From positions 42,614 through 106,613 of the forward strand of contig JABIAG010000002.1 in the NCBI GenBank assembly GCA_018653365.1: 64,000 bases of DNA, read 5' to 3'. A model generated the notes under the pieces. It made no database searches and was not told where the DNA came from. It saw only the letters and a program-made list of their open reading frames with translations. Below are positions 17,949 to 62,899 of the stretch, in pieces. Both the position numbers and the translations under genes were made by a program. Origin of the DNA: Candidatus Woesearchaeota archaeon. GTDB lineage: Archaea; Nanobdellota; Nanobdellia; Woesearchaeales; JABIAG01. Position 1 is the stretch's first letter, and each line of letters starts with the position of its first letter.

Positions 17949-18014
17949 CAAGGTGAACGTTAGAGAGCTTTTTCAGAAATCTCTGATTTCTGACAGAGTG
18001 AACAAATAGCTTTT
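17937..18014 (+). repeat. 45-nt-period imperfect tandem repeat containing a type C palindrome
   Basis: TCTGATTTCTGACA at 17937 and 17982; TCAGAAATC-TCT-GATTTCTGA at 17973-17993. Confidence 0.8.
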
Positions 18015-18903: not shown

Positions 18904-18962
18904 TTATTATAACTTGTTTTCAAGTTATGATATTCAAAAATCAGAGATTTTTGTTTTATTAT
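18904..18962. mobile_element. Two-hairpin mini-insert flanked by TTATTAT repeats
   Basis: ATAACTTG-TTTT-CAAGTTAT and CAAAAATC-AGA-GATTTTTG. Confidence 0.55.
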
Positions 18963-26670: not shown

Positions 26671-26789
26671 GCGCCTGTAGCTCAGCCTGGATACCGGAAA
26701 ATCTTGATTTTACTGGATTGACCCGGTAGGGTAAATAGAGTGGCACCCTCCTAAGGTGAAGGTCCGGGGTTCAAATCCTCGCAGGCGCG
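26671..26789 (+). tRNA. tRNA-Arg(CCT) with 44-nt D-loop intron (26691-26734)
   Basis: GCGCCTG/CAGGCGC; BHB with GCCT/GGGT helix and GGA/AAA bulges; splicing restores AGCCTGGATA. Confidence 0.88.
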
Positions 26790-26852
26790 TAACGGAGTGA
26801 AGCAACTGCGTAGGTGTTGGGAACGTAAGTGACCACATCTCGCAGGCGCGTA
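26778..26852 (+). mobile_element. 47-nt structured insert between 14-bp duplications of the tRNA-Arg 3' end
   Basis: CTCGCAGGCGCGTA at 26778 and 26839; hairpin GTGT-T-GG-GA-AC-GTAA-GT-GA-CC-ACAT. Confidence 0.75.
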
Positions 26853-46815: not shown

Positions 46816-46855
46816 TTCGACTTTAGTCGTGCCAGAAATCTTGTATTTCTGAGCA
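46816..46855. mobile_element. Type C two-hairpin mini-insert
   Basis: CGAC-TTTA-GTCG then TGC-CAGAAAT...ATTTCTG-A-GCA; relatives at 49528 and 62378. Confidence 0.65.
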
Positions 46856-51025: not shown

Positions 51026-51074
51026 TAAAAGTTTGAATACTCAGAACGAAGTGAGGTTGTGTTTAAACTTTGAT
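51012..51074 (+). mobile_element. Type B mini-insert between 15-bp (14/15) direct repeats
   Basis: TGTTTAA(G/A)CTTTGAT at 51012 and 51060; core 51037-51061 matches 62866-62890 at 23/25. Confidence 0.75.
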
Positions 51075-53225: not shown

Positions 53226-53357
53226 GCGGGAGTGGCAGAGTGGTCAAATGCGCTAGGTTGAGGTAGACGAAAATCAAGATTTTCGAAGTTCGTAAGTCTT
53301 CGACTTCAAACGCCTAGTTCCTTAGTGGATGCGCGGGTTCGATTCCCGTCTCCCGCA
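53226..53357 (+). tRNA. tRNA-Leu(GAG) with 48-nt intron at 37/38 (53264-53311)
   Basis: GCGGGAG/CTCCCGC; long variable arm; BHB TTGA/TCAA with GGT and ACG bulges. Confidence 0.92.
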
Positions 53358-53442
53358 TTTCTTTTTTTTTGTCTGAGCGAAGTGAAGTGATGTTGCGCGA
53401 GAACATTTTCTCGCCGTAGGTGCAATTCCCGTCTCCCGCATT
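53342..53442 (+). mobile_element. Structured insert between duplicated tRNA-Leu 3' ends
   Basis: ATTCCCGTCTCCCGCATT at 53342 and 53425; CT-GA-GC-GAA-GT-GA-AG hairpin. Confidence 0.75.
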
Positions 53443-60180: not shown

Positions 60181-60299
60181 GCCACGGTGGCACAACCTGG
60201 TACTGCGCAAGCCTGGAAACTTACTTCAGTAAGTTCTGAACGTAAGTGAAGATAGCTTGTTTCCGCAAGGATATCCCAGTTCAAATCTGGGTCGTGGCG
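60181..60299 (+). tRNA. tRNA-Ser(GGA) with 35-nt intron at 37/38 (60219-60253)
   Basis: GCCACGG/TCGTGGC; CAAGC-CT-GGA-A[intron]A-GCTTG; long variable arm. Confidence 0.88.
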
Positions 60300-62855: not shown

Positions 62856-62899
62856 CTTTGTTAGTATGCTCAGAACGAAGTGATGTTGTGTATTAGCTT
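62847..62899 (+). mobile_element. Type B mini-insert between convergent stops
   Basis: ATACTAAC-TTT-GTTAGTAT overlapping ATGCTCAGAACGAAGTGATGTTGTG. Confidence 0.7.

What the first reader, a model, noticed from the sequence alone, without database searches (positions are those of the whole stretch)
26671..26789. Non-canonical D-loop intron in tRNA-Arg carrying a type C palindrome
A strict BHB defines a 44-nt D-loop intron. Its core AAAATCTTGATTTT (26698-26711) is the exact reverse complement of the core in the tRNA-Leu intron (53270-53283). Opposite orientations argue for DNA-level insertion, with introns acting as safe havens or being generated by the element.
Basis: partly seen in the sequence, partly recalled or inferred. 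Interest (0 to 1): 0.7.

Follow-up and report, generated by a model that had tools for sequence, protein, structure and literature searches.

The report
Old D-loop intron in tRNA-Arg
The arginine tRNA gene of this tiny marine archaeon really is split in its D-loop by a 44-base protein-spliced intron, but that intron site is old and common in its relatives, and the short palindrome it shares with a leucine-tRNA intron is an ordinary intron hairpin, not a jumping DNA element.

Summary
Window 26671-26789 is a tRNA-Arg(CCU) gene that ARAGORN and Rfam miss. A 44-nt bulge-helix-bulge intron (26691-26734) sits between G19 and A20 of the D-loop. Removing it gives a normal 75-nt tRNA. A same-genus genome without the intron has exactly the predicted D-loop, and another has a 20-nt intron at the same site. 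The site is old: 64 further DPANN (mostly Woesearchaeota) stretches carry an intron there, with strong covariation in the inner helix.

The 14-mer is indeed the exact reverse complement of one in the tRNA-Leu(GAG) intron. But it is itself a palindrome apart from its two central bases, and it starts at intron base 8 in Arg and 7 in Leu. It has three copies in the genome and is not multiplied or tRNA-linked in relatives. A third of the related D-loop introns carry some perfect palindrome at that spot. The Leu intron is also old, and a distant homologue has an A-rich/U-rich hairpin at the same place.

So the intron is confirmed and the mobile-palindrome reading is not supported. The scan had already found other odd introns and a tRNA-Lys tail in this genome. 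Both tRNAs here carry similar unexplained 3' tails.

The parts
26671..26690 (+). tRNA-Arg(CCU) exon 1: acceptor 5' strand, D-stem 5' strand and D-loop up to G19
   Evidence: The spliced product is called tRNA-Arg(cct), 75 nt, by ARAGORN. Exons are 100% identical in G002.
26691..26734 (+). 44-nt bulge-helix-bulge intron in the D-loop (19/20). The junction can be written at four adjacent positions because ATA is repeated at both ends.
   Evidence: RNAfold minimum and pair probabilities. The intron-less G001 orthologue has D-loop AGCTTGGATA, and G002 has a 20-nt intron at the same site. 64 homologous-site introns occur in other genomes.
26735..26789 (+). tRNA-Arg(CCU) exon 2: end of the D-loop to discriminator G73, with no encoded CCA
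26685..26688 (+). Central BHB helix, 5' strand GCCU. It pairs with GGGU at 26729-26732. The bulges are 26689-26691 and 26733-26735.
   Evidence: In 59 distinct introns these four pairs are mostly G-C, C-G, U-A or U-G, and U-G or U-A.
26692..26697 (+). Inner helix h', 5' strand UACCGG. It pairs with CCGGUA at 26723-26728.
   Evidence: Across 59 introns the first five h' pairs are paired in 262 of 295 cells, with 5-6 pair types each, against 113-133 of 295 when the partner is slid by 1 or 2.
26698..26711 (+). Near-palindrome AAAATCTTGATTTT, directly 3' of the h' 5' strand (intron bases 8-21)
   Evidence: It is not stable alone as RNA (0 kcal/mol), and its arms pair with about 6% probability in the pre-tRNA.
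26792..26852 (+). 3' tail: a 47-nt insert (26792-26838) followed by a second copy (26839-26852) of CTCGCAGGCGCGTA, the last 12 bases of the tRNA plus 2 trailer bases (first copy 26778-26791)
   Evidence: It is absent from the syntenic G002 and G001 loci. It shares the block ACG-GAGTGAAG with the other tails.
53226..53357 (+). tRNA-Leu(GAG): exon 1 53226-53263, canonical 37/38 intron 53264-53311 (48 nt), exon 2 53312-53357
   Evidence: Rfam 48.5 bits. The spliced form is called tRNA-Leu(gag), 84 nt. Intron-less orthologues in G001, G003 and G004 have the loop TTGAGGG. Homologous introns occur in G017 and G126.
53270..53283 (+). Near-palindrome AAAATCAAGATTTT (intron bases 7-20). With the flanking C and G it forms a 7-bp hairpin.
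   Evidence: -3.2 kcal/mol with flanks; it is the first hairpin of the isolated intron fold.
53360..53442 (+). 3' tail of tRNA-Leu: an insert (53360-53424) followed by a second copy (53425-53442) of ATTCCCGTCTCCCGCATT (first copy 53342-53359). Bases 53388-53414 are identical to G000 C2:12419-12445.
   Evidence: It is absent from G001, G003 and G004.

Best explanation
This is the gene for tRNA-Arg(CCU), interrupted between G19 and A20 of the D-loop by an old, vertically inherited bulge-helix-bulge intron. In the precursor, D-loop bases G15-U17a pair with the intron's last-but-two bases (GGGU) to form the 4-bp central helix. Two 3-nt bulges (GG|A and AA|A) present the two cut sites. A 6-bp inner helix closes the intron. 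The cell's single 177-aa alpha-type splicing endonuclease cuts, and RtcB joins the exons (inferred; both genes are present). Everything inside the inner helix is free to drift. The 14-nt near-palindrome is this lineage's version of the small hairpin that such introns often carry right after the inner-helix 5' strand. Its identity to the first hairpin of the old canonical tRNA-Leu(GAG) intron most likely reflects convergence or chance on A-run/U-run arms in a 34% G+C genome. It is not the insertion of a mobile element.
For: Gene and splice sites. Removing 26691-26734 turns an unrecognised 119-mer into a 75-nt tRNA-Arg(cct). G001 (same genus) has no intron there and carries the predicted D-loop. 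G002 and a metagenome contig have identical exons and a 20-nt intron at the same site.

Age of the intron. A scan of species-representative genomes gave 80 stretches, 64 of them with at least 3 of 4 central pairs. Most are Woesearchaeota or Nanoarchaeota. After removal of the intron, 28 are called tRNA-Arg (CCT or TCT). Lengths are 18-48 nt. The inner helix covaries: 262 of 295 cells are paired, against 113-133 in slid controls.

Generic hairpin. 19 of 58 distinct introns at this site hold a perfect palindrome with 6-bp arms and a loop of at most 4 nt, for example GAAAACTTGTTTTC. None has AAATC..GATTT.

The Leu intron is old too. Its alignment to the G017 and G126 introns is reached by 0 of 500 shuffles. 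G017 folds with UGAAAAU...GUUUUCA at the same place.

Not a repeat family. The genome has 3 copies. Genomes of the order have 0-4 each, and none of 30 sampled lies near a tRNA. The loose class is not enriched.

Machinery. EndA and RtcB are present. L3-loop alpha4-type EndAs in DPANN are linked to disrupted tRNA genes in PMC5829648.
Against: The 15-nt identity is the single strongest interior match among all 25 intron-bearing pre-tRNAs of the genome (E 2e-4; the next best are 9-11 nt). Two of the three genomic copies lie in tRNA introns. The interior of the Arg intron has no detectable homologue elsewhere, so its history cannot be polarised. Both tRNAs also carry lineage-specific 3' tails (2 of about 6 tailed tRNAs), so the two loci may share a history. 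No RNA data exist, so splicing itself is inferred.
Confidence: 0.7

Rival explanations
1. Short-patch DNA copying between the two introns. Each already had an A-rich/U-rich hairpin, and a gene-conversion-like or intron-to-intron transfer event made the arms identical. This would be a miniature version of the intron transposition described in Thermoproteales.
For: It is the only significant interior match among 25 intron-bearing pre-tRNAs. Pairwise chance is about 9e-5. The motif has the same offset from the 5' splice site in both introns. Both loci also gained tails in this lineage.
Against: Similarity stops at 15 nt, with no flanking identity in either orientation. No other intron pair in the genome shows copying. 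Corrected for all pairs and for AT-richness, my estimate of the coincidence is only about 0.01-0.05. The G017 homologue shows that A4-U/A-U4 arms arise in this intron without any Arg partner.
Confidence: 0.17
2. One reading: a miniature palindromic mobile DNA element inserted in opposite orientations into two tRNA introns, which serve as safe havens or were created by it.
For: Two of three genome copies are intronic. G002's intron lacks the motif. The Leu intron is missing from G001, G003 and G004.
Against: Orientation is defined by only 2 of 14 bases. There are no terminal repeats, no target duplication and no shared flanks. The genome has 3 copies, other genomes of the order have 0-4, and none of 30 sampled is tRNA-linked. 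Both introns are older than the motif. The whole interior differs between G000 and G002, not just a 14-nt block. The AAATC-n-GATTT class is not enriched.
Confidence: 0.05
3. The motif is a shared functional site. It could be an RNA hairpin stacked on the inner helix that helps the endonuclease or another protein, or a DNA operator.
For: The position next to h' is the same in both introns. GAAAA-type/UUUUC-type hairpins recur in unrelated introns of the order: GAAAACTTGTTTTC in three Arg D-loop introns and UGAAAAU..GUUUUCA in the G017 Leu intron.
Against: As RNA, the Arg copy is predicted unfolded alone, and its arms pair with about 6% probability in context. Most introns at the same site lack it and are as short as 18 nt. 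The third genomic copy is in plain AT-rich intergenic DNA.
Confidence: 0.08

Closest known systems
Non-canonical BHB tRNA introns of Archaea (Thermoproteales, Nanoarchaeum, ARMAN). Reviewed in PMC4090602 and PMC4033280; ARMAN-2 enzyme in PMC3239211; DPANN survey in PMC5829648.
   Same: Protein-spliced intron outside position 37/38. It is defined by two 3-nt bulges around a 4-bp helix with a relaxed outer helix. The host has a splicing endonuclease plus RtcB. Standard tRNA finders miss the gene, as PMC5829648 predicts for DPANN.
   Different: The site is D-loop 19/20 in tRNA-Arg, conserved here across many Woesearchaeota and Nanoarchaeota species. The enzyme is a single 177-aa alpha-type protein, not the (alpha-beta)2 or epsilon2 types first linked to broad specificity. 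I could not check the published list of insertion points, because the figure is not held.
[quoted passage not shown] 2010, as summarised in PMC4033280 and PMC4090602)
   Same: Similar sequence in introns of unrelated tRNAs at different positions, read as DNA-level spread.
   Different: In Thermoproteales the similarity covers most of the intron and involves many genes. Here it is 15 nt in one pair, and both introns have older homologues without the shared sequence.
tRNA gene disruption by an integrating mobile element in Caldiarchaeum (Sugahara et al. 2012, PMC3293823)
   Same: Relevant to the tails: a partial tRNA copy stranded beside an intact, intron-bearing tRNA gene, with intron state and fragment changing together between close relatives.
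   Different: There, a 1.8-kb recombinase-coding element lies between the pieces. Here only 47-65 nt do, with no gene, and the same insert core also sits behind a protein-coding gene.

Membership tests
Archaeal BHB (protein-spliced) tRNA intron | Two 3-nt bulges on opposite strands separated by a 4-bp helix, flanked by helices | tested here: met
   RNAfold minimum and pair probabilities. The outer helix is relaxed and the central helix has two G-U pairs.
Archaeal BHB (protein-spliced) tRNA intron | Excision restores a canonical cloverleaf tRNA | tested here: met
   ARAGORN calls the spliced sequence tRNA-Arg(cct), 75 nt. The precursor is not recognised, and Rfam gives it only 18.7 bits.
Archaeal BHB (protein-spliced) tRNA intron | Orthologues without the intron, or with a different one, confirm the junction; helices covary | tested here: met
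   G001, G002 and L091. 59 distinct introns with h' paired in 262 of 295 cells, against 113-133 in slid controls.
Archaeal BHB (protein-spliced) tRNA intron | Host encodes the splicing endonuclease and an RNA ligase | tested here: met
   EndA with PF02778 and PF01974, 177 aa. RtcB.
Archaeal BHB (protein-spliced) tRNA intron | Spliced RNA and excised intron observed | not testable with these tools
   No RNA run is listed for this DNA.
Transposed tRNA introns (Thermoproteales type) | High similarity over most of the intron between different tRNA species | tested here: not met
   Only 15 contiguous nt are shared, with no flanking similarity.
Miniature inverted-repeat or palindromic mobile element | Many dispersed copies with conserved ends | tested here: not met
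   3 copies in 1.09 Mb. 0-4 copies per genome in 401 genomes of the order, with unrelated flanks.
Miniature inverted-repeat or palindromic mobile element | Filled and empty sites that differ only by the element, with a target-site duplication | tested here: not met
   G002's intron differs in its whole interior (11 nt against 35 nt). Nothing better than a 6-nt CTGGAT repeat flanks the motif.
Intron-borne box C/D guide RNA (tRNA-Trp type) | Box C (RUGAUGA) and box D (CUGA) inside the intron | tested here: not met
   Neither box is in 26691-26734 (read directly).

The most novel reading that the evidence does not exclude
The Arg and Leu loci were both remodelled in this lineage by one DNA-level process. 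A tiny element with a conserved purine-rich core (CAGAACG...GTGATG) inserts at the very 3' end of tRNA and protein genes and duplicates 9-64 bp of the target. It can also seed or extend BHB introns, and the shared 15-mer is a trace of that traffic. This would give a concrete mechanism for how non-canonical archaeal tRNA introns and stranded tRNA ends arise.
Probability: 0.12. Interest if true: 0.65.

Novelty: new member of a known kind. Interest (0 to 1): 0.3.

Why it matters
It adds a correctly delimited tRNA-Arg(CCU) gene to a genome whose tRNA set standard tools leave incomplete. It also shows that one D-loop intron site has been kept across a large part of the Woesearchaeota and Nanoarchaeota, with clear covariation. 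That is a clean comparative set for studying how a small alpha-type endonuclease recognises relaxed motifs. It removes a tempting but unsupported claim that palindromic elements colonise or create tRNA introns. The open and more interesting question lies next door. Short inserts with a conserved purine-rich core, each followed by a duplicate of the gene's 3' end, appear and disappear between sister genomes together with changes in intron state.

Tried and rejected
RNA evidence: no RNA holder is listed for this stretch.

Population variants: contigs of four marine DNA runs show the locus without any variant or indel, so there is no filled/empty polymorphism. Some of these runs may be the source of this genome.

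Metagenome scan for alleles with identical exons: it returned only the 20-nt G002-type intron.

Matches to the Arg intron interior in 60 relatives: seven candidate places were fetched. None is in a tRNA and they look like chance hits.

BLAST of both introns against the genome: only 14-15-nt AT-rich hits.

Tails:
- I tried to read them as box C'/D' K-loops. The register that gives tandem G-A pairs is not continued by the flanking stem, so a K-turn is not established.
- I looked by hand for a BHB that would splice out the first copy plus the insert and found none.
- Rfam at E up to 1 finds nothing in six core-bearing loci except the tRNAs.
- The exact core pattern in 120 other genomes of the order gave only three hits, in what look like coding sequences.
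In G002 the tRNA-Lys(CUU) has neither intron nor tail.

An apparent CTGGAT direct repeat around the palindrome was considered as a target duplication. I rejected it because a 6-nt repeat within 44 nt is expected about one time in six.

Full report
THE GENE. ARAGORN finds three tRNAs in the window, and Rfam adds the intron-bearing tRNA-Leu. Neither reports anything at 26671-26789. In the whole-genome Rfam search the site scores only 18.7 bits. Read by hand, the stretch has a 7-bp acceptor stem, a D stem (GCTC/GAGT), an anticodon arm with CCT, and a normal T arm. An extra 44 nt sits inside the D-loop. Removing 26691-26734 gives a 75-nt sequence that ARAGORN calls tRNA-Arg(cct); the 119-nt precursor is not recognised. 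The genome is 1.09 Mb, 34% G+C, in three contigs. Earlier notes of this scan call it a marine Woesearchaeota (DPANN) organism. That fits the record titles of the genomes sharing this intron.

THE SPLICING MOTIF. The unconstrained RNAfold minimum of the precursor already shows the motif:
- the D stem, then one unpaired base;
- a 4-bp helix GCCU/GGGU;
- a 3-nt bulge GGA;
- a 6-bp inner helix UACCGG/CCGGUA.

On the 3' side five bases stay unpaired, where a strict motif would have a 3-nt bulge plus an outer helix. Pair probabilities are about 0.58 for the central helix, 0.68 for the inner helix and 0.07 for the one possible outer A-U pair. So this is a relaxed hBHBh' motif, not a strict one. Because ATA stands at both junctions, four adjacent cut pairs give the same product. 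The BHB geometry chooses G19|A20.

The genome encodes one splicing endonuclease of 177 aa with both Pfam domains, and RtcB. A published survey links alpha4-type enzymes carrying an extra loop in DPANN lineages to heavily disrupted tRNA genes. The same survey notes that incomplete tRNA sets there point to unrecognised split genes (PMC5829648).

COMPARATIVE PROOF. The locus is syntenic in two genomes of the same genus: the tRNA is followed by an NAD-dependent epimerase gene.
- G002 has 100% identical exons and a 20-nt intron at the same place.
- G001 has no D-loop intron. Its D-loop reads AGCTTGGATA, the predicted spliced form apart from one C/T difference. It carries instead an intron of about 80 nt in the anticodon loop.
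- A metagenome contig repeats the G002 allele.

A scan of one genome per prokaryote species used the exon flanks with a 16-46-nt gap. It returned 83 stretches, of which 80 could be parsed. Of these, 64 have at least three of the four central pairs. Nearly all of those are Woesearchaeota, Nanoarchaeota or unnamed archaeal MAGs. After in-silico removal of this intron, ARAGORN of them tRNA-Arg (CCT or TCT). Many others carry further introns. The introns are 18-48 nt long, with a median of 30.

In 59 distinct introns, including this one, the first five inner-helix pairs are standard pairs in 262 of 295 cells, with five or six pair types at each position. When the 3' partner is slid by one or two bases, only 133 and 113 cells pair. 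The set was selected on the central helix, not on the inner one, so this is an independent test. The intron is therefore old and inherited, and only its two ends are constrained.

THE PALINDROME. Four points change its meaning.

First, AAAATC-TT-GATTTT differs from its own reverse complement only in the two central bases. 'Opposite orientation' is a statement about two bases that would lie in a loop. In the same orientation the motif begins at intron base 8 in Arg and base 7 in Leu. In both it directly follows the 5' strand of the inner helix.

Second, it is not a repeat family. The genome has three copies, the third in plain AT-rich intergenic DNA. Across 401 genomes of the order the four W-W variants occur 0-4 times per genome. 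In 30 sampled loci, none lies near a tRNA that ARAGORN can detect. The loose class AAATC-N0-12-GATTT is found 7 times in the window against 4.3 +/- 2.1 in shuffles. The intergenic 'members' named in another first-stage note are ordinary short hairpins behind genes.

Third, palindromes at this spot are normal for this intron. 19 of 58 distinct D-loop introns in other species hold a perfect palindrome with 6-bp arms and a loop of at most 4 nt, usually just inside or forming the inner helix. One of them is GAAAACTTGTTTTC. None has AAATC..GATTT.

Fourth, the Leu intron is old too. It is missing from G001, G003 and G004 (G004 is an unpublished genome), whose anticodon loops read TTGAGGG, exactly the predicted junction. 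But 8 of 130 other genomes of the order have an intron at that site with the same exon flanks. The G017 and G126 introns align to this one better than any of 500 shuffles. G017 folds into the same two-hairpin shape, with UGAAAAU...GUUUUCA where this genome has CGAAAAUC..GAUUUUCG.

So each palindrome is the local form of an older hairpin, and neither intron was created by it.

HOW UNLIKELY IS THE IDENTITY? From the genome's own 14-mer collision rate, two segments of 44 and 48 nt share a 14-mer with probability about 9e-5. AT-matched random 44-mers have on average 1.56 other 14-mer matches somewhere in the genome. Among the interiors of 25 intron-bearing pre-tRNAs this is the only match longer than 11 nt (E 2e-4). 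Over roughly 300 intron pairs, and allowing for the A-run/U-run bias of intron hairpins, I put the chance of one such coincidence in this genome at about 0.01-0.05 or somewhat higher. That estimate is my own reasoning. The result is suggestive but far from proof of a shared origin. A short-patch copying event between two already similar hairpins cannot be excluded. As RNA, the Arg hairpin is predicted not to form on its own, and its arms pair with about 6% probability in context. This argues against a structural role.

THE SURROUNDINGS. Directly behind the tRNA-Arg lie 47 nt and then a second copy of its last 12 bases plus two trailer bases (26839-26852). The tRNA-Leu has the same arrangement with an 18-nt repeat. 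Four other tRNAs of the genome (Lys-CUU, Phe-GAA, Ser-CGA, Ile-GAU) also have such tails.
- The Lys, Phe and Ser inserts share a purine-rich core, GTCCAGAACG...GAAGTGATGACA. It is preceded by a segment complementary to the start of the duplicated tRNA end.
- About 18 loci in the genome carry the core. It also occurs in G002, in G004 (unpublished) and, behind its tRNA-Arg, in G001.
- The Leu tail shares 27 identical bases with an insert behind a protein-coding gene, which is itself flanked by a 64-nt duplicate of that gene's 3' end.
- The tails at Arg, Leu and Lys are absent from the sister genomes. At the same three loci the intron is also absent or shorter there.

An earlier report of this scan read the Lys tail as a fossil intron with a stranded exon. 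I could neither confirm nor refute that. The identical insert at two unrelated targets, each with its own duplication, suggests a small mobile sequence. No Rfam family matches. I could not establish a K-turn or a BHB in the tails.

VERDICT. The kind of intron is known, and this site is widespread in the group. The claim that made the finding interesting is not supported: a palindromic element colonising or generating introns, inserted at the DNA level in two orientations. The scan had already reported other non-canonical introns (8/9, 4/5, a four-intron tRNA-Asn) and the Lys tail in this genome. Claims that rest partly on the unpublished genome G004 are the absence of the Leu intron in that genome and two of the core-copy examples.

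Noticed in passing
window 26792-26852 and 53360-53442; also G000 C1:350207-350286, C3:42121-42197, C1:230047-230125, C1:748400-748551: Six tRNA genes are followed by a 47-90-nt insert and then a duplicate of the tRNA's last 12-18 bases, including 1-2 trailer bases. The inserts share a purine-rich core (CAGAACG...GTGATG). In the Lys, Phe and Ser tails a segment complementary to the duplicated T-loop/T-stem precedes the core and covaries with it.
   Followed up: partly
window 53388-53414 and G000 C2:12320-12510: 27 bases of the tRNA-Leu tail are identical to an insert behind a protein-coding gene. The last ~64 nt of that gene, stop codon included, are duplicated with a few mismatches after the insert. 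The same insert sits at two unrelated targets, each with its own long target duplication.
   Followed up: partly
window 51042-51063 and 62871-62892; G000 C1:592198-592285, C1:528178, C3:16049 and others: Stand-alone and tandem copies of the same core (GCTCAGAACGAAGTGATGTTG) lie in intergenic DNA. Most are flanked by complementary arms, and some by direct repeats that look like promoter TATA regions. There are about 18 loci in this genome, and further copies in G002 and G004 (unpublished). No Rfam family matches.
   Followed up: partly
G000 against G002/G001 at tRNA-Arg(CCU), tRNA-Lys(CUU) and tRNA-Leu(GAG): At all three loci the genome with the tail also has the extra or longer intron. Lys: 15-nt intron plus tail, against neither in G002. 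Arg: 44 nt plus tail, against 20 nt without a tail. Leu: 48-nt intron plus tail, against neither in G001, G003 and G004. Tail and intron state seem to change together.
   Followed up: partly
L005 (G001 C10:3949-4104): The same-genus tRNA-Arg(CCU) has no D-loop intron but carries an intron of about 80 nt in the anticodon loop. A CTGA-N11-GTGATG core lies between it and the epimerase gene. Three congeneric genomes therefore show three different intron states for one tRNA.
   Followed up: partly
window 60181-60299: The canonical intron of tRNA-Ser(GGA) contains CTGAACGTAAGTGAAGAT. This resembles the tail core and shares 12 nt (GAACGTAAGTGA) with the tRNA-Arg tail, a hint that the core is intron-derived.
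   Followed up: no
G000 C1:14503-15036 (EndA; L059 1474-2007, minus strand) and the adjacent 356-aa ORF (L059 391-1461, minus strand): The only detectable splicing endonuclease is a 177-aa alpha-type protein, although the genome is full of non-canonical introns. It is followed 12 nt downstream by a 356-aa ORF with no Pfam match.
   Followed up: partly
window 17973-17993, 18935-18953, 46833-46851: The intergenic 'AAATC-n-GATTT' palindromes named in another first-stage note are short AT-rich hairpins just behind genes. One follows tRNA-Thr(UGU) and is itself followed by a T run. They look like terminator-type hairpins rather than a repeat family.
   Followed up: partly
L165, L097, L105 and other loci: Several public MAG records titled 'uncultured Methanosarcinales archaeon' carry Woesearchaeota-type tRNA-Arg genes with this D-loop intron. 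One of them has the intron sequence of the G002 allele. The organism names of those records look wrong.
   Followed up: no
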